From assembly GCF_037042905.1 (NCBI RefSeq), contig NC_087250.1, positions 19,718,001-19,782,000 of the forward strand: a stretch of DNA of 64,000 nucleotides, given 5' to 3'. This document shows positions 17,495-43,706 of this stretch, piece by piece. Both the position numbers and the translations under genes were made by a program. The number at the start of each line of letters is the position of its first letter. Position 1 is the stretch's first letter. Source of the stretch: Lytechinus pictus (Eukaryota). Under the pieces are notes generated by a model that was given only the letters and a program-made list of their open reading frames with translations, searched no databases and was not told where the DNA came from.

Positions 17495-18375
17495 ACCAGT
17501 TACCACACACATTGCAACACACCAGTTGCAACATACATTATCATGCATCAGTTATCACACATCTAGTTACCACACACATTTTGGGTAATGACTCTGATGC
17601 ATGGTATTATGTGTATTATGTACAATATGTGTGGTAACTGGTTAGTGTTTACCACACACCATTTACCACACGAATTACCTCATATTTTACCACACACCAG
17701 TTACCACATGCATTACCACACACCAGTTACGTAACTGGTGTGTGGTAGTGTATGTGGTAACGTGTGTGGTAAATCGTGTGTAGTAATGCATGTGGTAACC
17801 GGTGTGTGGTAAAATGTGACGTAATTTGTGTGGTAAGGCATGTGGTAAAATATGAGGTAATTTGTGTGTGGTAACCCGTGTGGTAACCGGTGTGTGGTAA
17901 AATGTGAGGTAATTTGTGTGGTAAGGCGTGTGGTAAAATATGAGGTAATTCGTGTGGTAAATGATGTGTGGTAACGCGTGTGGTAACTGGTGTGCGGTAA
18001 AATGTGAGGTAATTTGTGTGGTAAATGGTGTGTGGTAATGCATGTCGTAACTGGTGTGTGGTAAATGGTGTGGTAAATGTCGTGTGATAATCTATGTGGT
18101 AAATGGTATGTGGTAAAAATTGTTACCATAAATTAATCCCTTGTGTGGTAAATGTTACCATATATTAATCCATTCATGTGGTATTCCTGTGGTAATGTTG
18201 TGTGGTAAATGTTCCAATTTACCACAGGACAATACCACACGACATTACCACACATTACCACACAATACCACAGGACATAAAGACATAGCATTACCACACA
18301 ACAATATATGTGGTAATCGTGTGGTACAGTCCTATGGTAATTATATGGTATTACCACAGGACATTTTTGTAAGGG
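17495..18375. repeat. TGTGGTAA/TTACCACA-rich right subterminal array of the 10.8-kb element
   Basis: Dozens of TGTGGTAA or TTACCACA motifs in both orientations, ending at the TIR. Confidence 0.85.
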
Positions 18376-26414: not shown

Positions 26415-27274
26415 TTCAGTTTGCCGCATCGTGAGACAACGGATTATTTCCTTTACCAAATCTATACTACCACGATGATCAACATCTTCCGTACAAACTT
26501 TTATTCTTATAAACATTTACATGTATGATTGTGCCATGAATTTGCTTTGATTTGTAATTGTTTTGGTGACTTACGCTCCTCACCTGGCTTCTGTAACACA
26601 AAAGTTTGCAATCTCTATTGACCAATCAAGATCATTGTTGCATGCTCACCTTGTTGCAAACACTGGCCAGTAACCAATCAGAATCGTTCTTTTATATTTG
26701 AAATCCTTCACAAAAAATGTGTTATGGGGTTGAGGGATTCTCCTTTTCTGACAAATGAAATTAAAATTCTAGTAATTTCAGACATATTTTAGCCATCAAA
26801 AAGTTTTTTTTATTAACCGGAAGGCTCATTCTAAATCATTTTTGCACTTAACTTAATTTTGATGTGGGCAACTGGTAAAGGGTTTGCTTAGCAGACTAGC
26901 TCATGAAATTCATTGAGAGCTACAATCTTTGGCATTTATTAGTTCAATTCCCATTTGACAGATGTAGGTCTATTGAATAAATAAATTCCATGCTGTTTTC
27001 ACTTTACACTGTTCATTTACAGCGGGCATTCAAGAGTAGGCTTATTTTTGACACCCATATATTTTAGATATTTTAGATAAAATAAAATGGAAATAATCCT
27101 TCTGCAGAATACCCTTCTTCGAATGATATATATTTTTTATTATGTGCATGTAAAGAATAAATTACTGTAATATAATCCATTACTAGTGTATAAAATTTCA
27201 TTTCTTAGCGCTTTCGATAGATGGGATGGCTGTGGATATGATCTGTATACTTGGGACAGATATTGGTGGGAACA

Positions 27275-28070
27275 TGGGAGTGGGAGATTAAGAGAGAGAG
27301 AGAGAGAGGGGGGGGGGGGGCTAGAGAGAGAAAGAGTGAGAGAGTGCATGGGGAATTGATAGAGACAGGGTAGGAGAAAGAGCATTAGACAGAGACAGGG
27401 GTAGGGAGCGGGAGGAAGAGAGAGGGTTGGAGTGAGAGAGTGCATGGGGGAACTGATAGAGACAGGGTAGAAGAAAGAGAATGAGAGAAGGGTGGGGGAA
27501 GGGAGGGAGCGAGAGGGTTTGAGTGAGAGAGAGCATGTGGAATTGACAGAGACAGGGTAGAAGAAAGAGAATGAGAGAGAGAGACAGAGGGGTGGGGGGG
27601 GGGAGGGAGGAAGCGAGAGGGTTTGAGTGAGAGAGTGCCAATTGATAGGGACAGGGTAGAAGAAAGTGAATGAGAGAGAGACAGAGGGGTGGAGAAGAGG
27701 GTTGGAGTCAGAAAGTGCATGGGGGAATTGATAGAGACAGGGAAGAAGAAAGATAATGAGAGAGAGACAGAGGGGTGGGGGGAGGGAGGAAGCGAGATGG
27801 TTTGAGTGAGAGAGTGTCAATTGATAGGGACAGGGTAGAAGAAAGAGAATGAGAGAGAGACAGAGGGGTGGTGGGGGGAAGGGAGGTTCAAGCGAGAGGG
27901 GTTGGAGTCAGAAAGTGCATGGGGGAATTGATAGAGACATGGTAGAAGAAAGAGAATGAGATAGAGACAGAGGGGGGGGGGGGGGGTAGACATCGGGAAG
28001 AGGGAATGAGAAAAGATAGACACAGGGAGGGAGAGATGGTGAAAGACTGATGGAAAGAGAGAGTAACTTG
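27275..28070. repeat. Purine-rich imperfect tandem repeat with G tracts
   Basis: Recurring gatagagacagggtagaagaaagagaatgagagagagacagaggggtgggg. Confidence 0.85.
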
Positions 28071-30708: not shown

Positions 30709-31433
30709 CACTAAGCACAAAGTGCTAAAAAATAACACCTATGGGCGTGTATTCTCTATACGAGCTCTCAAAAGTACTTAGAGCGTATCTCACTTTTGTA
30801 TAGGCCCTAATAGAAATTACGACTTTCATACGGTAATTAATTGCCAATTAGTCTACTGCCAACTCCTCCCCTCACCACATGGTCTACTTTTATTTAGTCT
30901 ATTCCGTCTATCAACATTTCGTCTAACAACCATTTGGTCCATTAACCATTTGGTCCAATCATCGCTTCGTCTAATCACCATTTCATCTCATAACCAGTTT
31001 GTCTAATATCCATTTCATTTTCATTCATTTTGCACAATTTAACACTTAGTGTTAGTGATTTAGTCCAATTAGACCAAATGGTATATGCACTAATTGGCTA
31101 TTGGATCAACTGGTTATTAGACGGGATGGCAGTAGACTAAATGAAAGTAGACCATGTCGAACTGATGGTCGAATTGGCATTAGACGAATTGGAAATAAAC
31201 CCTTCCATACATGATATGCCATAATCTTTTACAAATAAATGATGTATATGAATAATGAGATGAAAGTTTGACAATAAATCACATGGCATCGCATATACTG
31301 TCACATAATTACAGGTATAGTTTCTATGAGTGCCATCAGCCTGTGCACAGATTAAACATGTTTCATCTTCTGCCGATAGAGGCACTAGGTCCCCCTTTCC
31401 CCATATAAAAAAGTACTATGGTATTACCAAAAT

Positions 31434-32465
31434 AAATTGACAGATGAAGGCAGTACATTTATCATGGTAAAAAAAATCAATGGTAGAAATACCATGGTAA
31501 TACCATAGTGTTACTAAATTGACAGATGAAGGCAGTACATTTACCATGGTAAATCAATGGTAAAAATACCATGGTATTTACTAAGTTGACAGACGAAGGC
31601 AGTACATTTACCATGGTAAATCAATGGTAGATATACCATGGTAATACCATAGTATTACTAAATTGACAGATGAAGGCAGTACATTTACCATGGTAAATCA
31701 ATGGTAAAAATATCATGGTATTTACTAAGTTGACAGATGAAGGCAGTACATTTACCATGGTAAATCAATGGTAGATATACCATGGTAATACCATAGTATT
31801 ACTAAATTGACAGATGAAGGCAGTACATTTACCATGGTAAATCAATGGTAAAAATATCATGGTATTTACTAAGTTGATAGATGAAGGCAGTACATTTACC
31901 ATGGTAAATCAATGGTAGATATACCATGGTAATACCATAGTATTACTAAATTGACAGATGAAGGCAGTACATTTACCATGGTAAATCAATGGTAAAAATA
32001 TCATGGTATTTACTAAGTTGACAGATGAAGGCAATACATTTACCATGGTAAATCAATGGTAGATATACCATGGTAATACCATAGTATTACTAAATTGACA
32101 GATGAAGGCAGTACATTTACCATGGTAAATCAATGGTAAAAATATCATGGTATTTACTAAGTTGACAGATGAAGGCAGTACATTTACCATGGTAAATCAA
32201 TGGTAGATATACCATGGTAATACCATAGTATTACTAAATTGACAGATGAAGGCAGTACATTTACCATGGTAAATCAATGGTAAAAATATCATGGTATTTA
32301 CTAAGTTGATAGATGAAGGCAGTACATTTACCACGGTAAATCAATGGTGAAAAGACCATGGTAATACCATAGTATTACTAAATTGACAGATGAAGGCAGC
32401 ACATTTACCATGGTAAATCAATGGTAAGAATACCATGGTAATACCATAGTATTACTCTAGTTGTA
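31434..32465. repeat. Higher-order tandem array of alternating 67- and 77-bp monomers (144-bp dimer), ~14 monomers, within a CCATGG-rich element (~31400-33531)
   Basis: aa(a/g)ttgacagatgaaggcagtacatttaccatggtaaatcaatggta at 31516, 31583, 31660, 31727, 31804, 31871, 31948 ... 32380. Confidence 0.92.
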
Positions 32466-34014
32466 CCATGTACCATTCATTACCATGGTACTTTCATTCT
32501 TTCATAATCCGCGTGGGTTGGCCATTTAGGTTCCATGTGGGTCCCAAAAATGGGTTTATTAAAAAGAATAATAATTAAATGTCAAGTTCATTGAAGCACA
32601 TTTTTACAATTCCATACTCTAAGCCATATCACCTTATTCTATCCTACAATCATACATTCTAATCCTAAATGCTAATCCCCTCCTTCACCTATCCACAGAG
32701 ACCTGTCATTGACTTCTATATAGGCCTATTAAGCGAGTTCACAAAACTTGAAAAATATGGTTAACAATTTTCCATATTTGACCCCAAAACATTCTTCCAA
32801 AATTAATTGTCATGATTATGAATAATATAATTTATAAACCACACATTTTTCTGAAAATTTTCGTGGTGGAATCATTGCATAAACATAAACACATCAATTG
32901 TCAAAGCTACATACATATTAGCTAAAATTTTGGTCATTTATTGTTGTAATGAATATTCATGAGTGCAGTCCAAACCAAGGGATACCATAGTAATACCGTG
33001 GTTACTATGGTAATACCATATTAACACCATAGTACTTGATTTTTTTTACAAGGGATCACGGTAGCAGTACCATAATTATGCCAGTCAAAAAAGTATCATA
33101 AAGTACCAAGAAATTACCATAGAGAACTGTGTAAGTACCACGAAGTGCAATGACAGTGTCCAAGAGAGCTAAAGTACCATGGAGTAGGCCTACTAAGTAT
33201 CACAGAGAACCATGAAAGTACTATGGAGTACCATGAAAGTATATCATGTGTGAGGATGGCACTCTTTTCAGTATAAACATTAACCATATAAACAATTTTG
33301 AAATTTCATTGTAATACGTAACATCTATGGTACATTCATGGTAGTACTATGGTACATTATGGTACTTCTGCATTTTCAAATAGTACTTTCCTATTCCGTA
33401 TGGTACTTCTGTGGTACACTATGGTCGTACTATGGTACAAATTAATTTACCATGGGTACTGGTCATTGAGCTACAATACCATGATAATACCATAGTAATA
33501 CTATGGTACTTAATGCTACTATTTTACAAGGTCCCCCTTTTAATACTCACTGTTCTTTTTCACTAATACTCCCCAATATTATTTTGCGATATTCTAGGTC
33601 ATAATCCTGCTAATAATTTATGATTTAATATCGTTTGAACATTGGACTTTCGTTATAGAGTGTCACATGTATTTACCAGGAAGTAAATTTAAAATGTGGA
33701 GAAAGAGAGGTGAGAGAGAGGGGAAGAGAGAGAGAGAGGGGAAGAGAGAGAGAGAGGAAGAGAGAATCAATCCTGTGTATTTCCGTGTAAGCATGCATGA
33801 AACATAATGACAAAAGCATATTCTGCATGCATGCGCTATGGGGAGATTCTATTTTACTTTTCTTGGCAAACGAGGAATAAACAACACAATAATGGGGAAT
33901 TCCATCCATGCCACTGGAAATATGGTTTTAACTAAAATATAACCCGGTCGCCTCACTGGATCCAATGATAAAACGTTCATCTTTTAGGAATTCTTGAAAA
34001 AAGCATATATAACG

Positions 34015-37000
34015 ATGGATGAGAATCCACCTGCTATAGGACTTATCTCTTTAAGTGCCATGGAGGAGATTGAGCAATCATTAATCGCCAAGTACATTAC
34101 TGCTAGCGGACTGACACCGGTTTCGAAGCGGATCTCCGCGGCGGAGGTTCCGGGTTTTAGGCCGCCCAGGGAGTGGAAGGCGGTGTTCCTTTTCCATCAG
34201 AGCAGTCATGGGAGATTTTCAATCGGAATATCAGACGTCATTTCGAATCAATATGATGTTTTGATTCCGAAATTAGCAGAAGCATACGGTAGGCTGAAAA
34301 GTTTTTATGATATTTATTATTTATTTATTATTGGTAGATTTGAACTTTTTATAGGCTTATCATGCACGGCAGCAGTATGCCTTTAGTGGATTGGTATAGT
34401 ATATGCCTATACTGTTTTATTGTTATTGTATCATCATTTCCTTATTGCTAAAATCATCAATATTATTATTATCATTATTGTTATTATAATCATATTGTAT
34501 TATTACATTATATTTTTAATTGTTATTATCATTATTTGTATTTGTTTATTATATGTGATATATGTTTATCATCAATTGTTATGTAAATGTCACAAATTGT
34601 GATTTGATCAATATTGTACTTTCTTTAAAGTATATACATTATTATTATTACTGTGATTTTTTATGTTTTGAATTATCAATGATTGCCGATTTAAACACCT
34701 GCTAAATTATTATTATCATTAATATCATTATTGTTATTATGATTATTATTACATTTATTCTCATAATCATTCTTATCGTCATTATTATCATTTTAATCCC
34801 AATGTTCTCTACGCTCATTTAATTCCACCTTCATTTATACTTGGCAGGCAATAAAGCAGTGTGTTTCACTGTTTGTGACGTAATTGAGGAGATTACTGAT
34901 CGAATGCGAGCCCGCCAATTTCAAATCTTGAAGAGAGACCAGCCCGCCCTCATTCGACACACATCGGGCAATGTGGTCTTCTGCAGCGAGGTGGATACAA
35001 TTCATGAAAAGGACTCGATAAGAATTAAAAATATAATCAACGAGATTTGTGAGGCTTGGAGCAAGAGACAAGAGGAAATATCAAGACTTAAGAAGGTTTG
35101 GATGACATTGAGGGATTTCAAGTCCGGTGTTGGCATTAGTGTTGGCGTTGGAATTTGTATTACTTCCCCTAGCTCAAAAATCTATTCTGAGTTTGTAAAA
35201 CTGATCCAGATCACGTTATTGACATCTCAAAAACTATAGTGGGTGACTTTTCAGGACCATCTTCTTTTTAATGTTTGGTGTTATACTCGTGTAAAAACTG
35301 ACCTAACACCAACACTAAAAGGTCAACACTGAACTTGAAATCACCCATTCTACTTTGTTTCGATGATGAAAATAATAGTTACATTTATATAACGCTTCAT
35401 GCTTTGCGATTCTAAGCAATTAAAATGTAAATAGGGAGTTTCGCAACCACTACACAGATGATTTCTGGAACGCAGAGAATCTATTGTCAATAGCCCTTCA
35501 TGACAAAGCAGTCTTTGTCGAAAATCGGTGAAACAAAACAGCAGTCCGTCCTGGACTCTGGTCAAACCACTTATTTGCAATTTTTCATCAGCTCCGCATC
35601 TTACGACGATCGATGATGTCCCCGTTCACCACTTTTCGACAAAGACCTCTAAGCTGTAAATCGTGTGATTCAACGGGCATTTTCAATAGATTTACTATGT
35701 CGTAGATTCCGTTCCCGTTGCGATCCCGAACACTCGCTATTTTAATAATCGCGATGATAGTAAAAGAAAATAGCAATGGCGTTGATGAATACGTTCAAGT
35801 TGGTGAATAGGTTGATTATGCTGATATTGAATAGAATCAGAATCCAACCGTTGATAAGGGTAATACTAATGACAGCAGGATTAGTGCAACAAGAAATATA
35901 ACAACAATTACGTTGATAATAATACTATCAATAGTAACGATGGTATTTCAAACTTTGCTATAGTCTACTAATAATAACAATAATACTTAGTAAATATGGT
36001 GCTTACATAGCACATTAATTCATGATCTCTATGTGCTTTACCGATGAATTATATACATTACATTACAAGAAATCGAACGAGTTATTAAAGGGGAATCCAG
36101 CCTTGGCCATTAAATGTTGTGTTGGGAAGGAGAAAAATAAATTAAACAGAATGGTGAAAGTTTGACAGAAATCGGACAAGCAATAAGAAAGTTATAGCTG
36201 ATTTAAAATTGAGATCACTAATACTATGTAAATTTCAAATTGGCAACTGGGTAAGTAAATTTTGACAAGGGGCAAGGACAACTTTCCCATAGGCCATGTA
36301 CTTTATTATCAGGGATTTGTGGTTTTCTCCTAAGTACCCATTCCCCTGGGGCAGTAATCTAGATATAATCCAGGTAGTATATTGTTTTATGTCCTCATGA
36401 AAGAAAAATATAATTTGCAATAACATTTTTGGGAATAATGACATTTTAGCCATAATATGTATTGGAGTACATGGAAGAGTAGTCCTTGCCTTACATCACT
36501 ATTACATCCCATATGCGGCCAATTTGAAGTCTCCATGGGTATAGTGATTACCAATATTTACAACTTTTAAAAATGCATAACTTTCTTGTTGTTTGTCCAA
36601 TATTGTTCAAACTTTCACCTATCAACTTGTCTGATTTTTCTTTTCCTTATAAAAACAAGTTTTTATTCGGGTTGGATTCCCCTTTAATTCAAGTTCCACT
36701 AAATTCCAATAGTATCCTACATTATAATGATAACGACGATAATGATGAAAATAGAATCAAAACAATATTAAATCGGATTCATAATGACAGTATTGACAAA
36801 TTATAAATTTTGATGAAAAATGATAGTACTTCAATAACCTAAAACTCACAACAGTAAAAATAATATTTATGATAAATTGTGATATTAGAAATGATATGAT
36901 TTTCATATCGATAATTATATAAATGCGAACATTACTTATGGAAAGTGAATTATAACTGAAGAAGGGTGAAACCACCAAGACTGGTTGAATTTTATTAAAA

Positions 37001-38909
37001 GAGAACAATCAAATAAACAGATCAATGATTTAATAATAAAAAAGTTACACTCTGGTAATCAACGATTTAAAATTAATCCAGATCGGCTGTGGATAGTGAC
37101 CAGCCGAATGTTGAATTTATTTTAAATCTTTAGGATTAATTTTCAATTCTCAAAACATTTAAATTCAAATCTTTTAGATTTATATTTAAATCTTCAAGGT
37201 TTAAAAATAAATCTAATATTCGGCTGGTCATTATTCACAGCCGATCTGGATTTATTTTAAATCCTTGAATTTTAGAGTATATGAGTATTTGAACAATGAT
37301 GCCATGTGGATCCTCCCATTAGGAGGCTGCACTCTACAAGCTCCGCTTTTTAGCATCCTCCTCCAATTCCAACCTGATATGTAATAATCTTGAATATAAT
37401 TTTTGTACAGGGATACTTGTAATATGATTTGTTATTTGTATGTCAAAATGTACAAAACAAACTGTAATTGTTGAAAATAGAAATAAACGAAATGAAATGA
37501 AATGAAAAAAATTGCAACGCGACCTGTCACACACTATTGTATGATGGTGGGCCCTAAGTCTGCGCACCTAACAATTTGAGTTAAGATTTAACATGAATTT
37601 CTTCTTATTTCACAAAATCTTTTGGATAATAATGTTCTTTATATTATTGAGAGTAAGTATACCAAATTTCTCATTAAAAAATGAAAGAGAATATAGGATT
37701 TTCTTGAAAAAACCTTGGGCAGTCATTTTCAGATTGAAAAAAAAAATGGTACCCCATGCCTGCGCACTCATTCACTTTGCACACGATTCGGAGATTTTGA
37801 TGAGAAAGGCTGTATTTTGAGGCCGTCACATGAAATGCCCTGAATTCATTATTTTTTCACCATTTTGAGTCGGATTTTTTTATGAATAGCTGTCTATGTA
37901 TTGCATGTGTAAAGACTAAAGTTCGTGCTCGTTGCGTATCTTCTTTTACTAGAATCGCGCAGATACGCGGGTGCGCAGACTTGGGAGACCGCGCAGACAT
38001 GGGGGAACTGACCATACAGTGCGTCCCAGAAACAAAGAAAACCGTGATTCACATGTCACTTTCCTTCATAGCAAAATAAATTACGATATTTAATTTACAT
38101 CATCATATAATTCAATTCTTCTTTATTTTGATACATAATTATGAGACGAACAGTCCACGGATTTGTGTGCTCGACAAAATAATTTGAAATTTTCATGTCA
38201 AAATCAGGTTGCGCAGAAAAAAATGACAACCGTGATTATTCGCCGATTGGCTCATTAGCATTTATTATTTATTCTTTGTTACGATTTTCTCTCACTGATC
38301 CCCGCCTGAAATGAGAGTGGATTCAGAATCCTACGTGAGTTTCTGCGTAAATGGTGTCTGATATGCCTCAATATTTATTGCTTTTTTATTTTAAACTGCC
38401 ATGCGGGGACGATTTGCTAAGCTTTTGGTATGAAATTAAAGATGAGATTCCACTCTTACCATAAGTATGAAATTTATAGTGGAAACATATTTAATGATTA
38501 TGAAATATATCTCACGTAAAAAAATATTTCACCCTTCTCTTTTTTTTTCTTGATCGTGATTTTTTTTTGTTTTTTGGGTGGGGCAAGTGTCCCCAAGCAC
38601 CCCATCTGTACGTCACTGACATTTGTGTTTACAACTTTTAAATGCTCATAACTTTCTTATTGCTTGTCCAGTTAGTCTCCTTTTATTGATTATCATTTTA
38701 TAATTATCTAGACCTATCTGTTTCACGTAAGCTTACTTGCTCCGATCCAATGGTTTTATTCTCCTTCAATAAAAATGCTTATCTGTTTGCTTGTTTTTTA
38801 TCAGCAATACGCACGTGACTCGAATGACCAACGATTCGAAACATTGAATGGGTCAAGAAAACCACCAATACCAGCAAAACCAGCAATAAAACGATCCCAG
38901 TGGGTTTAA
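34015..38909 (+). CDS. Uncharacterised ~208-aa protein with a possible TIR-like domain; exons 34015-34288, 34848-35095, 38805-38909 (last exon less certain)
   Basis: GC-richer open frames joined by phase-compatible GT-AG introns (phase 1 then 0); acceptor at 33987 just upstream of the ATG; alternating beta/alpha pattern; Pro/Lys tail RKPPIPAKPAIKRSQWV. Confidence 0.65.
36089..36683. mobile_element. TTAA-flanked MITE (Kolobok-like); second copy at 47812-48570
   Basis: ttaa|aggggaatccagcc ... ggttggattcccct|ttaa. Confidence 0.85.
37320..37506 (+). mobile_element. Probable LINE 3' end with (GAAAT)n tail; second copy at 59551-59714
   Basis: Two similar copies taggaggctgcactctacaa...gaaataaa.gaaatgaaatgaaa. 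Confidence 0.55.
37548..37990. mobile_element. MITE with AAGTCTGCGCACC TIRs
   Basis: gggccctaagtctgcgcacc / ggtgcgcagacttgggagacc. Confidence 0.6.
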
Positions 38910-40714
38910 GAGAAGACAGCATGCACTATAGCTTGAAACAGGTTAGTCAATAATTTTACAAGAAAGCTATTTTTTATGAAAGAACGTAAAGGATGTTTTA
39001 CCCAACGTGTTTTACAGACTGCCGTTTGTACATTGTTAACTTGTTATCTAATTAATTTGAATGATGTATATTGTTTTACAATACGCCAAATGAGATGTTA
39101 CTTGAATTATATCTGTCTGTTGGATATGAAGATAAATAGAATGAATGAAATTAAATGTGTTATCGGACACAGTCCGTTTCATCCAACAATACCACATTAA
39201 GTAGCTTCACACCTATATGCTACAGTACAACCACTCAAAATCAAATATAAATATCAGGGTCCCGTCTTACAAAGAGTTGTGATTGATCCAATCAACCACA
39301 TGCAATTACGGAAAGCCAGCCGGGCCAACATCAACTTTTTAGGCACGTTTGCTCAAAATGTTTTTCTAGATAAGATCACTGGCGGATCAAGGAGGAAGGG
39401 GTGCACATCCGGCCCGTGCCCCGCTTTTGAGAGCCATAGTCATTTTTTAAAAATGTAAATATGCCGTTCTTACACACGTGTGTCCCCTCCCCTTTTCGAG
39501 TCACATAATGCGACTATGCCGTTCAAGCACAGGATTTTTTTTGGTAAAATTTTTCTCGGGAAAATTTCCCCCCCCCCTTTTTGGAAATCCTGGATTCGCC
39601 CCTGGATAAAATTTATACTATACATTCATTGTTGCGTTGACAATTTGATGTTCTCCTCTTTGTTTACAAGAGAACGTTGTGCAAAAATTCGTTAGGAAAA
39701 TTACGACACTGGTGGATTTCCATATAGTTGAGATTGATCGATTCAATCGTAACTCTTTGTAAGACAGGACCCTGGGGCCCGTTGCAGAAAGAGTTGCGAT
39801 CAAACGCAACTAAAATAAAATTTTGAGCAACTTGATTTTCAGCCAATGAAGCACTTGACTTGCGCTTGATATTTTGACTTGCGTTTAATCGCAACTCTTT
39901 CTGCAACAGCTAGGCACCTGGGGAGCGTTTCATGAAAGGATTTTATCCGACAAGTCCTGTTTTATCCGACAATTACCATAGTAATAGTACCTCTCAGCCA
40001 ATCAGAATCAGAGAAAGTTGTCTGATCCGAGTGTCGGACAAAAATGTTGATGAAACGCTCCCCTGATCCCCCTGATGTAACAAATATTATACGACGACAA
40101 ATGTTGATGAAACGCGCTCGGACCATCATGCCCGTTGAGTGAAAATAGCCTACTTCCAGACAGTCTGTGAGCGTGACACGATAATAAAATAAGCAAGCGT
40201 TTATAGAATCCTGCGAACAATTATTCATAATTGCTTCAAAGTTATTCCCAACAATATTGATAGAAGCAAACGATCACTATTACCTTTCTTCTATATCATA
40301 GTTTATTATTCGGGGGCAAACGATCTTTCTACCATATTTTTTCATACCTACTCACACTGGCGAATCCAGGGGGGGGGGGTGCACCGCCGGCCAGTGCCCC
40401 CCCCCCTTGAGAGGCACAATTAAAAATTGTATGTAAAAATGCCATTAAAACAGAAAAACAGAAGTGTGCCCCCCCCCCCCTTTGAAAGTGAATACTTTTT
40501 TTTGCTTGCCAAATTCCTAGGGATAATGTGCCCCCCCCCTTTGGGAAATCCTGGATCCACCCCTGCCTATAAGTTACCAGACATAATTATCCCTGACCAT
40601 TTATTTTTATGGATAATTTTCAATTCATCTGGTCCCCACTCGCCAATTTCGATGAAAAATTAACATTTATAGCTCCATCATTCTTTGATATACCTTGCAT
40701 TTATTTTCTTGACT

Positions 40715-42037
40715 CTAGGCCTTGGATCCGTTGACCTTTGAAACTGATTCTTTCACATTTGTACTTATTACCGCGGACTCCGGATTATGACCAAATAGCG
40801 GAGCGCCATTCCGAGGTGATCCGATCGGCCCTGCACAGAATAACTGCTTAAGCGCCTTCCGGAACGGAGGATGACGGATGGTATAGATAATCGGGTTAGC
40901 GCAGGAATTGATGAACATGAGCAGGATTAAGCTAGAACTCAAGGGACTCCAAATGTAAGTAATGGGTAAGACGCCCATGTTCACCAGGAAATAGGCTGTC
41001 ATGTTCGGGGTGAAGCAAATGATGTAGGCGCTGACAACGATTAGCATGAGTTTGAGGACGCGGTTCCTGGCGACGACATGGAACGTTGGTCTGTCGGTCT
41101 TCTGGATCTGTGCGTTCTTAGCGATCTTGCGTTGATTGTGAAGGGAACATGCCGTGAGACTTTGAGTAATGAGGAGGGTCGTGATCGGGAGGACTACGGT
41201 CACCAGGTAATTGAAGATTCCAATGGGGAGGACAACGCTCGGGACAGCTCTGTAGAGGCATGTGCACTGGGGAGTTATCACAAAGACAAAGGGGATGAAC
41301 AACGCGGAAAGTATGCCAGCTACCCAGATAAGCATGATGGCCATCTTGCTGCGTCGAGGGGTAAATACGAACATGTGGTGAAGAGGATTCGCAACAGCCA
41401 TGTAACGTTCGATTCCCATTGCCATGAGAATGTAGGACGATGTCCGCAGTCCATGAAATAGGAAATACCGAGAGTCTATCATCTTGCAGAAGAAGAACCC
41501 TAGCGGCGAGCGCGGTATCCTCTTCGATGTTGGCACTGGGATGATAAAGACGGAGCTGACCAAGTCGGCAATGGCTAACGCACCCACCATGATATCCATT
41601 GAGTGCAAGGCCTCACGACGTTTGGCTAGGACGACAATAACAAGAAGGTTCCCAGTGATGCCGACGACACCGATGAGTACCTGGATACAGTCGAATATTC
41701 CCCATCTTAGTACATTCCATTCCCAAGAATCACAGGACTTTGTGGTGTGGTCCATGTCACTTCCGTTGATCAGGTTTCTCTCTATCCTTACAGGAAACAT
41801 ACTTTCTTCTCTATCCATCGCAATACCCCCTCTTGCTGTTACCCATGCGAAGGCATCGTAGCCCTCCGTCGTCATGGTGTAATTGAGAAACACATCGTTA
41901 AGAACAGCTCTTTCACTTGTCAGTGTGACGCCCTCTACGATGGAACTTGTATTTTGGCTGTTTTTAAATGAGATGTCGTCTGCCATACTCCCATAAAGTT
42001 TGATCAGGAAGAAAATCAAAGCTACTTGATTTTTCAT
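40715..42037 (-). CDS. Class A (rhodopsin-family) 7TM GPCR, peptide-receptor-like (galanin/allatostatin-A-like), 440 aa, intronless CDS
   Basis: Signal-peptide-like MKNQVALIFFLIKLYGSMA; TM1 GN, TM2 LAIAD, TM3 C and ERY, TM4 W, TM6 CFTP, TM7 NSCANPIIY, helix 8 FRKALKQLF; splice acceptor at ~42073 upstream of the ATG. Confidence 0.93.
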   Translation of the reverse strand: MKNQVALIFFLIKLYGSMADDISFKNSQNTSSIVEGVTLTSERAVLNDVFLNYTMTTEGYDAFAWVTARGGIAMDREESMFPVRIERNLINGSDMDHTTKSCDSWEWNVLRWGIFDCIQVLIGVVGITGNLLVIVVLAKRREALHSMDIMVGALAIADLVSSVFIIPVPTSKRIPRSPLGFFFCKMIDSRYFLFHGLRTSSYILMAMGIERYMAVANPLHHMFVFTPRRSKMAIMLIWVAGILSALFIPFVFVITPQCTCLYRAVPSVVLPIGIFNYLVTVVLPITTLLITQSLTACSLHNQRKIAKNAQIQKTDRPTFHVVARNRVLKLMLIVVSAYIICFTPNMTAYFLVNMGVLPITYIWSPLSSSLILLMFINSCANPIIYTIRHPPFRKALKQLFCAGPIGSPRNGAPLFGHNPESAVISTNVKESVSKVNGSKA

Positions 42038-42349
42038 GATGAGTTCTTGCCGTCTGAAGCACCCAACGAAATCTGTCAAAATCGAAAAAAAAAAAAAAAA
42101 ACACATCTACACCTAAAATGTTATAAGACAAAAAGTATCTGTGTGTTGATAACATTAATAATGCATATTAATAGGTAAGCTTTATAGTGCGCCAAATCCA
42201 TTCTGCAGAGTGCCCAAGGCGCAAAAGAAAAAAAAAGAAAGAGGGTGAAAGGAAGTATACACATTTATGTAATTATGAAACAGGGAAGTGGGAATTTAGA
42301 AACTCTTACTTCCTTCATGTCCTTGATAAACAGAACGAGCTATCATTAA

Positions 42350-42688
42350 AGGGATTCTCTGGGCTGAAGATATTTATATCTCAATAAATAGAGTAAACTT
42401 CCAAAGGGAAAATTCTAAAATTTGATCAAGATGGGATAACAAATAATGAACAATTACGATTTCATGTAATAACATAAGAAAAAGGAAAGTTGGGATGTGC
42501 CATCATCAGCCCACGTAATGAATGTTCATGAAGACATACCTAGAACTGTTTTACCAGAATAATGCAAATCTTTAAAGGTCAAAAGCTTTGTTATTTGTCA
42601 TCCGATTTAGATCAAATTTCCAGCATTTTGCTCTGTGAATCTTACTCTATTTGTTTAAATATAAATACCTTCAGCCTGGAGCATCCCT
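42350..42688. mobile_element. TTAA-flanked MITE (Kolobok-like), diverged
   Basis: ttaa|agggattctctgggctgaag ... cttcagcctggagcatccct|ttaa. Confidence 0.7.
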
Positions 42689-43029
42689 TTAAGAGTAGGA
42701 AGAATTGAAAAGACGCGTCTTTTGTTAGGTAAAGTTTGTAAAAGCGGAAGCATTCTCGGATAGCCAGAAGAGAACAGTACCAGCGTGAGCAAAAGCCCAT
42801 ACCCGAAAGATTTTGGAACAACTAGGGAACCAAAGTTGGATGAACGTGGGGACCAGGGGTCCATTTCATAAAGAGTTACAACTGTTATAACTTTGCCATT
42901 ATGGCAACTACCATGGCAAGAGGGCTCGGCAGCCAATCAAAATCAAGGTTACCATGGTAGTAAATTGCTATAATGGCAAAGTTACAACAGTTGCAACCCT
43001 TAATGAAACTGGCCCCAGACTAGAGTGTA

Positions 43030-43350
43030 TATGTTATTATTGTAATGTGGAGCAGAACCGTCGATCGCATAGAATACAAGGAGAAATATTTTGAAGATGA
43101 TGGAGTCATTGACTTGTAACCAAAGTAGAGATTTCATAATGGGTGTGATATGAATATGTTTTTTTTTAGATTGGGAGAGCACTCATGCTACAGTACGTGT
43201 TTTTTTTAGCTTTGGGAGTTTTAAAAACTGGGTATTTGCATAGCAAAGCATTCCCAAAATTGAGTCGCGAAGAAATTAGGGGGTGAACTGGAACTAATAT
43301 TTCAGATTTTTACAATTATTTCCTGATGAACCCAATATTGCGGAGTTGAT
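43030..43350 (-). mobile_element. L2-type LINE ORF2 C-terminal remnant
   Basis: Minus-strand frames read LISSRLNFGNALL and HITPIMKSLLWLQVNDSIIFKIFLLVFYAIDGSAPHY. Confidence 0.75.
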
Positions 43351-43706
43351 ACCTTACAGATTTACAGATGCTAGTGATTTGATTGACATTCATTTTTTGA
43401 CGTTTCACAATTAAATGGGTACTCCAGGCCGAAAATAATTATATCTATATTCTAGTGGTTCTCAAAGATTGGTGAATCCCACCAGAAAATGATCATAATT
43501 AGTTCAGGTGTTCAAGTTGTTCTGCCATGGTTTAGATATTCATTTGTGAAATCAGGTGATAAAATATTACTTTCAAAATAAAGTTTGTTTCCCTCGGCTC
43601 GCCGAACGTTGTTGTCTACATACAGCACTCAGCATGAAGGATTGCATTCTGTGGTGGTGCTCGTCTAACTTTTGGGCACAAACAGAGTAAAATTCACGGA
43701 TCAAAA

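What the first reader, a model, noticed from the sequence alone, without database searches (positions are those of the whole stretch)
33988..38909. Unannotated small gene with a possible TIR-like fold
Seen: exons splice in frame to ~208 aa with strands AIGLISLS, AVFLFH, VCFTVCD and VVFCS separated by amphipathic helices, then a basic PxxP tail. From memory, unverified: the motif FLFH..SHGR..I.ISDV....YD..L....G...V resembles an uncharacterised domain family (H...GR..ITDV..LYD) seen in echinoderm and amphibian predicted proteins. Inference: a stand-alone TIR/flavodoxin-like domain, possibly an innate-immune adaptor or nucleotide-processing enzyme. No obvious catalytic Glu occurs at the start of the helix after strand C (YDVLIPKL), so it may be non-enzymatic.
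Basis: partly seen in the sequence, partly recalled or inferred. Interest (0 to 1): 0.7.

Follow-up and report, generated by a model that had tools for sequence, protein, structure and literature searches.

The report
Sea-urchin gene, unnamed alpha/beta domain family
This is a real, spliced sea-urchin gene, already predicted but unnamed in public databases, whose protein belongs to an undescribed family with a predicted five-stranded fold resembling both disabled GTPases and TIR immune domains; it lacks the catalytic signatures of both, so it is likely a small binding module rather than a known enzyme.

Summary
The gene is real: three GT-AG exons give 208 aa, identical to RefSeq XP_063957223.1 (Lytechinus pictus LOC129263174, 'uncharacterized'), so it is not unannotated. 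An RNA-derived contig shows junction 1 directly and junction 2's donor indirectly. The protein belongs to a family with no Pfam model, found here in three sea-urchin species and unnamed records. Four lineages only 29-40% identical keep S12, H61, G66-R67, S69, D74 and Y80; rows that end at exon 1 stop at the same Tyr-Gly. Two AlphaFold models give five strands alternating with helices. Structure searches tie between degenerate GTPase domains (IRGQ N-terminal domain, CENP-M), the RRS1/RPS4 TIR and flavodoxins (Z about 10-11), so 'TIR-like' is one of three readings and not the leading one. The TIR catalytic Glu and CC-loop aromatic, the GTPase G motifs and the flavodoxin phosphate loop are all absent. 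Best reading (0.4): a non-catalytic binding module whose conserved polar loop grips a partner or ligand, with an SH3-type proline tail. A new His/Arg/Asp/Tyr enzyme site is not excluded. No amphibian member was retrieved and no immune link was shown.

The parts
34015..34288 (+). Coding exon 1 (M1 to the first base of G92): strands 1-3, two helices and the conserved loop; phase-1 donor GTAGGC
   Evidence: in X1 contig; 88 of 92 aa identical to the L. variegatus orthologue
34048..34056 (+). S12-x-S14 at the C-terminal end of strand 1 (S12 invariant in 14 of 14 rows; position 14 is S in 13 and T in 1)
34195..34254 (+). Family signature H61-x4-G66-R67-x-S69-x(2-4)-D74-[VI]-x4-Y80, from the end of strand 3 into the third helix; low confidence in both models
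34289..34847 (+). Intron 1, 559 nt, GT..AG, phase 1 inside the Gly92 codon; five short relatives (P0004, P0006, P0014-P0016) lose similarity at the same Gly
34848..35095 (+). Coding exon 2: strands 4-5 and most of the long last helix; 69 of 82 aa identical to the L. variegatus orthologue
35096..38804 (+). Intron 2, 3709 nt, GT..AG, phase 0, rich in interspersed repeats; donor use inferred from the X1 contig; the older RefSeq model reads through it to a stop at 35239
38805..38909 (+). Coding exon 3: end of the helix and a disordered basic tail (pLDDT under 50 for residues 189-208), stop TAA; matched by the L. variegatus model
38862..38879 (+). PxxPx[KR] motif (residues 194-199), class II SH3-ligand pattern (pattern recalled); kept in L. 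variegatus; arises in 6.5% of shuffled tails
38835..38846 (+). F185-x-x-L188, a bare LIR core; fails the stricter xLIR pattern (recalled) and arises in 30% of shuffled tails; probably chance
32959..33009 (+). Possible upstream 17-codon exon used only by the older model XP_054757068.1 (16 of 17 aa match; GT donor follows; acceptor before 33988); not supported by the reads laid

Best explanation
The gene encodes a 208-aa protein with one predicted five-stranded alpha/beta domain that lacks the catalytic motifs of GTPases, TIR NADases and flavodoxins, and that likely works as a non-catalytic binding module, in the way the stripped-down G domains of CENP-M and IRGQ do. Steps. (1) Shown: three exons, RefSeq model, junction 1 spliced in RNA, no hydrophobic stretch long enough for a membrane anchor. 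(2) Predicted: residues 5-165 fold as five strands and helices; the tail is disordered. (3) Shown: S12, H61, G66, R67, S69, D74 and Y80 are invariant across lineages only 29-40% identical. (4) Inferred: S12 and H61 end strands 1 and 3, which are neighbours in this fold class, so these residues line one polar cleft that binds a partner peptide or a small anionic ligand and orders the flexible 64-77 loop. (5) Inferred, weak: the basic PxxPxK tail recruits an SH3 protein, making the protein a small adaptor. Long paralogues reach a two-ended layout with a linker and a second, motif-less copy of the domain.
For: Fold: pLDDT 79, pTM 0.72; same element order in S. purpuratus P0013 (pLDDT 67). Foldseek's best hit for the P0013 model is the IRGQ N-terminal domain (8q6q, E 1.6e-5, TM 0.57 by target), with CENP-M at E 1e-4, TM 0.59; both also appear for the window's protein (E 6.9e-4 and 2.6e-3). 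VIA: IRGQ Z 11.1, rmsd 3.2, 144 of 167 aligned; CENP-M Z 9.9, rmsd 3.2, 132 of 148. CENP-M is a five-stranded parallel sheet that lost strand 2 and the G motifs and does not bind GTP (PMC4080450, passages); the IRGQ N-terminal G fold forms a pocket for GABARAPL2 (PMC13172515, passages). No G1 motif in 16 of 16 family proteins. No Glu after H61 in 14 of 14 rows. 16 of 84 columns are identical in four lineages against 3.4 expected, maximum 10 in 20,000 permutations. The motif exon is better kept than exon 2 between the two Lytechinus species (4 of 92 against 13 of 82 differences, Fisher p 0.019). The second domain of long paralogues aligns in register but weakly (hhalign E 0.018, 83 columns) and lacks the motif.
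Against: The structural ranks are ties: the RRS1/RPS4 TIR scores Z 10.5 and 10.9 with 132-135 of 141 residues aligned, within 1 Z of the G domains, and FMN reductases top Foldseek for the window's own model (E 3.7e-5). Profile comparison with 15 bacterial GTPases gives nothing (E 0.47); only flavodoxins align in register, weakly (E 0.017). Six invariant polar residues (S, H, R, S, D, Y) fit an enzyme site at least as well as a binding site. The conserved loop is the least confident part of both models. Relatives were found through these same residues, which inflates their invariance. The proline tail exists only in the two Lytechinus orthologues. No partner or ligand was identified, and I could not view coordinates, so strand order and the cleft are inferred from the matched folds.
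Confidence: 0.4

Rival explanations
1. The domain is a small enzyme of a new kind: His61, Arg67, Ser69, Asp74 and Tyr80, with Ser12, form an active site at the strand ends where TIR, MilB/DNPH1 and flavodoxin folds carry theirs, probably acting on a nucleotide or another phosphorylated metabolite.
For: Six of the 16 columns invariant in four lineages are polar. They cluster at the ends of strands 1 and 3 and the start of the next helix. D74 to Y80 is six residues, the spacing of S to catalytic E in the S-x-W-x-x-x-E pattern of my TIR_2 sample (13 of 29 rows match a strict form). A low-confidence conserved loop is what a substrate-ordered loop would give. Viral nucleoside 2-deoxyribosyltransferases appear at Foldseek E 2-3e-3.
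Against: [quoted passage not shown] No enzyme stands above the tie in any fold search. The second domain of paralogues lost the motif. The register against TIR could not be fixed by alignment.
Confidence: 0.27
2. It is a highly diverged, catalytically dead TIR domain that works as an innate-immune adaptor or decoy through TIR-TIR assembly.
For: 4c6t_A (RRS1/RPS4 TIR) ranks 2 and 3 in the wide searches, with about 95% of the target aligned; SIGIRR, TIR-STING, MyD88 and TIRAP reach Z 8.7-9.3 for the window's model. Strand 1 reads F-x-S-x-S in 9 of 14 rows, like the F-i-S-y-S of my TIR_2 sample. E75 is rare in MyD88 and TIRAP (PMC7075850 section 10), so its lack does not bar an adaptor.
Against: No aromatic residue lies 1-5 positions after H61 in 14 of 14 rows, so the S/T63-F/Y66 element kept by most TIRs is missing. 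No Pfam TIR or SEFIR match at E up to 1-10. hhalign against 29 TIR_2 domains E 0.33, inside the shuffled range, whereas TIR_2 against flavodoxin gives E 0.005. Only 1 TIR is in the top 50 for the second model. No death, LRR or other immune domain is attached in any member seen.
Confidence: 0.15
3. It is an IRGQ-like autophagy receptor: a degenerate G domain followed at once by an ATG8-binding LIR (F185-x-x-L188).
For: The IRGQ N-terminal domain is the top or near-top structural match, and IRGQ's LIR1 lies at 186-189, just behind that domain; the motif is kept in L. variegatus.
Against: Fails the xLIR pattern; a bare core arises in 30% of shuffled tails; it lies at the end of a predicted helix (H145-188); other members have no such motif there; identity to IRGQ is only 10-14%.
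Confidence: 0.05
4. It is a flavodoxin-derived flavin-binding protein.
For: Flavodoxins and FMN reductases fill the Foldseek lists with the highest identities, up to 15-18%; the only in-register profile alignment is to 25 flavodoxins (81 columns, score 20.6 against a maximum of 19.0 in 25 block shuffles).
Against: The S-x-T-G-x-T phosphate loop aligns with S-T-E-S-S-T or S-A-M-E-E-I and has lost its Thr-Gly; HH probability 2.7%, no better than TIR_2 against flavodoxin; in VIA flavodoxins rank below G domains and TIR (Z up to 8.7).
Confidence: 0.05
5. It is an active TIR-type NADase.
For: TIR-like shape; cADPR-producing TIRs occur in echinoderms (10.64898/2026.04.20.719644, passages); an invariant Asp lies 11-13 residues after the end of strand 3.
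Against: Activity depended on the catalytic Glu in all cases in that study; no Glu here in 14 of 14 rows; under either plausible register the position holds Q/K/R or Y.
Confidence: 0.03
6. It is a decaying paralogue or a prediction artefact without function.
For: Zero raw reads on exons 1-2 in 2 of 2 runs; very long branch to the other members; no close orthologue outside Lytechinus among 115 candidates.
Against: Intact frame in two species, exact splicing in an RNA contig, all 14 family-invariant residues kept, 96% identity over the motif exon.
Confidence: 0.03

Closest known systems
IRGQ N-terminal G-like domain (PDB 8q6q)
   Same: Best Foldseek hit for the S. purpuratus relative (E 1.6e-5) and Z 9.7-11.1 with 144-151 of 167 residues aligned; a long last helix followed by a short motif at about residue 186
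   Different: 10-14% identity; no G1 loop here; no second GTPase domain; LIR-like motif not above chance; the H-GR-S-D-Y signature is peculiar to this family
CENP-M pseudo-GTPase (PDB 4p0t, 4wau)
   Same: Stand-alone five-stranded alpha/beta domain without G motifs (PMC4080450); Z 9.9, rmsd 3.2, 132 of 148; TM 0.54-0.59 by target
   Different: 13-15% identity, no sequence-level match; CENP-M's GTPase origin rests on relatives with an intact P-loop, and none was found for this family
TIR domains (RRS1/RPS4 4c6t; SIGIRR, MyD88, TIRAP, TIR-STING)
   Same: Z 10.5-10.9 to 4c6t_A over 132-135 of 141 residues; strand-1 F-x-S-x-S in most members
   Different: No CC-loop aromatic, no Glu, invariant His at the end of the central strand, short second helix, no profile match; other TIRs score Z 9.3 or less
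Flavodoxins, WrbA and FMN reductases (PF00258)
   Same: Same fold class; top Foldseek rows; weak in-register profile alignment that places G66 on the flavodoxin loop after strand 3
   Different: FMN phosphate loop not kept; lower Z than G domains or TIR
Pfam PF15443 DUF4630 clusters of chordates (recalled to include human C2orf72)
   Same: Nearest named clusters in ESM feature space (0.80-0.85; family on 18% and 43% of members)
   Different: Below the 0.9 mark; no PF15443 match by hmmscan for any of 14 members; no sequence in hand to compare
Sea-urchin paralogues LOC121420628, LOC121420675, LOC129266937, LOC129266586, LOC115920784, LOC105437816 (all 'uncharacterized')
   Same: Same domain at the N-terminus with the same signature (23-30% identity)
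   Different: Most add a long Ser/Thr-rich linker and a second motif-less domain; the window's gene has a 2-residue insertion in the signature loop and a short proline tail

Membership tests
TIR domain | Five-stranded alpha/beta flavodoxin-like fold | tested here: met
   Models align to 4c6t_A at Z 10.5-10.9, rmsd 3.3-3.4; predicted, and shared with other superfamilies
TIR domain | S/T63 at the end of strand C with aromatic F/Y66 in the CC loop (PMC7075850 section 10) | tested here: not met
   Invariant His ends the strand; no F/Y/W at +1 to +5 in 14 of 14 rows
TIR NADase / MilB-DNPH1 | Catalytic Glu in helix C (E75; present in over 70% of TIRs, rare in adaptor TIRs) | tested here: not met
   No Glu from H+6 to H+23 in 14 of 14 rows
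TIR / SEFIR | Match to Pfam TIR, TIR_2, TIR_3 or SEFIR profiles, or to a TIR profile by HMM-HMM | tested here: not met
   No such family listed for 3 proteins at E up to 10 or 14 members at E up to 1; hhalign to 29 bacterial TIR_2 domains E 0.33; shallow profiles, and no animal TIR profile was in hand
TIR domain | Homotypic TIR-TIR assembly | not testable with these tools
   Needs experiments
P-loop GTPase | G1 GxxxxGK[ST], G3 DxxG, G4 [NT]KxD | tested here: not met
   G1 absent in 16 of 16; no DxxG in P0001 or P0002; no G4 at the end of strand 4
Pseudo-GTPase (CENP-M, IRGQ N-terminal type) | G-domain shape with five strands and lost G motifs | tested here: met
   Z 9.7-11.1 to IRGQ, 9.9 to CENP-M; G domains dominate both wide lists; tied within 1 Z with one TIR
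Pseudo-GTPase (CENP-M, IRGQ N-terminal type) | Descent from GTPases, shown by relatives with an intact P-loop or by profile similarity | tested here: inconclusive
   No such relative among 16 proteins; hhalign to 15 E. coli GTPases E 0.47; family sampling is shallow
Flavodoxin | S-x-T-G-x-T FMN phosphate loop after strand 1 | tested here: not met
   The in-register alignment keeps only the Ser; no such motif after strand 1 in 16 of 16
CheY-like receiver | Acidic pair after strand 1 and phospho-accepting Asp ending strand 3 (recalled) | tested here: not met
   Ser and His hold those places; hhalign to 20 receiver domains E 0.12, out of register
DUF4630 (PF15443) | Pfam profile match | tested here: not met
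   Not listed for any of 14 members at E up to 1; ESM feature likeness 0.80-0.85 only
LIR-type autophagy receptor | Extended LIR in a disordered, acidic context, with ATG8 binding | tested here: inconclusive
   Core F-x-x-L present, xLIR pattern absent, chance rate 30%; no ATG8 sequence was in hand to model

The most novel reading that the evidence does not exclude
The founding member of an unrecognised animal (possibly deuterostome-wide) enzyme or nucleotide-sensor family that sits structurally between TIR domains and stripped-down GTPases and has replaced the TIR/MilB catalytic glutamate with a His-Arg-Asp-Tyr site, giving a new small-molecule signalling chemistry.
Probability: 0.18. Interest if true: 0.72.

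Novelty: new variant of a known kind. Interest (0 to 1): 0.4.

Why it matters
The fold is common, but the family has no Pfam, NCBIfam or PADLOC model, and none of six locus ids occurs in the paper library. A 160-residue stand-alone domain with six invariant polar residues is an easy biochemical target in a laboratory sea urchin. If it is an enzyme or nucleotide sensor it would add a chemistry to the TIR/flavodoxin fold, where new animal NADases are still being found. If it is a pseudo-GTPase it would be a further case of a G domain reduced to five strands. As it stands it is one more uncharacterised urchin gene with no demonstrated function.

Tried and rejected
Pfam on single exons and whole proteins, NCBIfam and PADLOC: nothing over a cut-off; best was tRNA-synt_1c at E 0.001, below its cut-off and in 1 of 14 members. 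PDB sequence searches with one protein and two profiles: best E 0.084-0.62. Prokaryotic or viral relatives: none confirmed among 175, 27 and 159 pattern matches, none in 301 sampled genomes of one phylum or in E. coli K-12; 'not found in those searched', without a positive control. BFVD fold search: only generic alpha/beta hits. Homodimer prediction of residues 1-170: no verdict, score 0.00; not used as evidence. Forced global hhalign to TIR_2 and GTPase profiles gave no usable register. A recalled likeness to the BCAP/BANK1 TIR and to the GIMAP conserved-box Arg: BCAP was not among the listed rows, and GIMAP2 appeared only at Z 8.7; both remain untested leads. No second copy of the gene in the window. 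No whole genome is held, so paralogue number and synteny were not examined. No holder on record as RNA was listed by the run index. Literature: DUF4630 0 papers; six LOC ids 0 papers; C2orf72 44 papers, none of the 20 listed structural by title; searches listed nothing on this family. Earlier findings by sequence, place and words: nothing on this gene. P0003 (older model) and P0009 (isoform) were left out of alignment A2. Supplements were not read; the TIR tables of 10.64898/2026.04.20.719644 could bear on whether this protein has been classed as a TIR.
Full report
Observation. A search with exon 1 alone returned a 208-aa protein identical to this product (P0001) and an 88% identical 225-aa protein (P0002). 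They are RefSeq XP_063957223.1, Lytechinus pictus LOC129263174, and XP_041467243.1, L. variegatus LOC121417574, both 'uncharacterized'. So the gene is annotated, though unnamed. An older model (247 aa) adds an upstream exon at 32959-33009 and reads through intron 2.

RNA evidence. Of four runs laid on 32500-43500, the contig set X1 holds a 556-nt record with no other letters that covers 34009-34287 and continues at 34847-35093, which is junction 1 shifted left by its one ambiguous base. It stops at 35093, exactly the left-shifted position for a joint from donor 35095 to an AG acceptor; its last 30 letters are not listed, so junction 2 is inferred, with support from the two RefSeq models. X5 covers parts of exons 1 and 2 with differences. 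The two raw RNA runs (about 6% and 25% read) show zero depth on exons 1-2, so expression is low or restricted in those samples. The tissue is unknown.

Family. phmmer over 1.84 billion representatives gave 4 hits at E up to 0.001: the query, two unnamed short proteins (P0004, P0006) and an L. variegatus paralogue. A profile of these found 13 proteins among 8000 scored candidates: 9 named from L. pictus, L. variegatus and Strongylocentrotus purpuratus, and 4 unnamed. In the 14-row alignment S12, I24, P50, V57, L59, H61, G66, R67, S69, D74, Y80, L83, L87 and G92 are invariant. Four lineages that are 29-40% identical over exon 1 share 16 of 84 columns, against 3.4 expected; the relatives were found through these residues, so this is partly circular. 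Five short records lose similarity at the Gly that ends exon 1, which suggests a shared intron. Long paralogues carry a Ser/Thr-rich linker and a second domain that aligns weakly and in register but lacks the motif (E 0.018). No vertebrate sequence was retrieved; ESM Atlas neighbours include an echinoderm cluster (0.89) and chordate clusters (0.80-0.88), two with DUF4630 on a minority of members, all under the 0.9 mark. No prokaryotic or viral relative was found in what was searched.

Fold. AlphaFold2 gives E7-12, H17-31, E34-39, H42-47, E54-63, a low-confidence loop, H78-91, E96-102, H109-129, E134-137, H145-188 and a disordered tail (pLDDT 79, pTM 0.72). The S. purpuratus relative P0013 gives the same order. 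For the window's model, Foldseek lists FMN reductases first (E 3.7e-5), IRGQ at 6.9e-4, CENP-M at 2.6e-3 and the RPS4/RRS1 TIR at 3.6e-3. The wide VIA search ties a probable GTPase chain (Z 10.7, rmsd 3.7, 159 aligned), that TIR (10.5, 3.3, 132) and IRGQ (9.7, 4.8, 151); by entry title I count 32 G domains, 6 TIRs and 5 receiver domains in the top 50. For P0013, Foldseek puts IRGQ first (E 1.6e-5), and VIA ties EngA (11.2), IRGQ (11.1, 3.2, 144 of 167) and the TIR (10.9, 3.4, 135 of 141), with about 44 G domains and 1 TIR in the top 50; CENP-M scores 9.9. A G domain that has lost strand 2 is a five-stranded parallel sheet (PMC4080450, passages), which explains the tie. GTPases are abundant in the PDB, so the counts are not independent votes.

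Motif tests. TIRs in general keep S/T63 with an aromatic residue three places on, and E75 in over 70% of cases (PMC7075850, outline and section 10). Here an invariant His ends the strand, no aromatic follows within five residues, and no Glu lies from H+6 to H+23 in 14 of 14 rows. Animal TIR activity needed that Glu in all cases tested (10.64898/2026.04.20.719644, passages), and TIR and MilB/DNPH enzymes share it (10.64898/2026.09.21.753143, abstract and section 5). No G1 motif occurs in 16 of 16 proteins. Profile-profile comparison of the family with 29 TIR_2, 25 flavodoxin, 15 GTPase and 20 receiver domains gave E 0.33, 0.017, 0.47 and 0.12. Only the flavodoxin alignment is in register and above all 25 block shuffles (20.6 against 19.0), but TIR_2 against flavodoxin scores higher (23.0), so this shows a fold class, not membership, and the FMN loop is not kept. 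One TIR-like trait remains: F-x-S-x-S on strand 1 in 9 of 14 rows.

Tail. Residues 194-199 match PxxPx[KR] in both Lytechinus species (6.5% of shuffled tails). F185-x-x-L188 is a bare LIR core at the same position as IRGQ's LIR1, 186-189 (PMC13172515, passages), but it fails the xLIR pattern and arises in 30% of shuffles. There is no membrane-length hydrophobic stretch (maximum 19-residue mean 1.05).

How it most likely works. Shown: a spliced, conserved gene whose product lacks NADase, GTPase and flavodoxin signatures but keeps its own polar signature. Predicted: one five-stranded alpha/beta domain and a disordered tail. Inferred: the signature lines a cleft at the ends of strands 1 and 3 and binds a partner or small anionic ligand, while the tail recruits an SH3 protein; it would work like the non-catalytic G-like domains of CENP-M and IRGQ (0.40). 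The main rival is an enzyme with a His/Arg/Asp/Tyr site (0.27), then a dead TIR adaptor (0.15). It is not filed as a TIR, GTPase or flavodoxin, since a defining feature of each was tested and not met; pseudo-GTPase descent is unproven.

Novelty. The gene model is public; the family has no profile in the libraries searched and no paper in the searches named (listings only). It is a new family-level variant of a very common fold with no shown function: interest 0.4, rising to about 0.7 if it proves to be a new enzyme or nucleotide sensor.

Noticed in passing
window 40715-42106 (-): Single-ORF rhodopsin-family GPCR (7tm_1, E 2.3e-31), tail to tail with the gene and about 1.8 kb from its stop; covered by contigs in X1 and X5 at similar low depth.
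   Followed up: partly
window 31433-32440: Young tandem array of 7 copies of a 144-bp unit, 97% matches, with related CCATGGTA-rich sequence running on towards 33500.
   Followed up: no
window 33884-34101: An X5 contig runs straight across the AG at 33986-33987, so that acceptor may be unused or the intron retained; the transcript's 5' end is unresolved.
   Followed up: partly
P0005, P0007, P0009-P0012 C-terminal 140-160 aa: A second alpha/beta domain with its own conserved end (W-L-x-D-[CS]) and without the family signature; never folded on its own.
   Followed up: partly
P0001/P0002 against S. purpuratus: No close S. purpuratus orthologue of this gene turned up (2 hits among 115 candidates), although the long paralogues have S. 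purpuratus members; loss, missing annotation or fast divergence.
   Followed up: no
window 35100-38700 and 39250-40500: Intron 2 and the 3' flank hold several high-copy interspersed repeats with very high read depth and inverted joints.
   Followed up: no
window 17687-18132 (-) and 27140-27907: Long open frames made by His/Thr-rich and purine-rich tandem repeats; most likely non-coding satellites.
   Followed up: no
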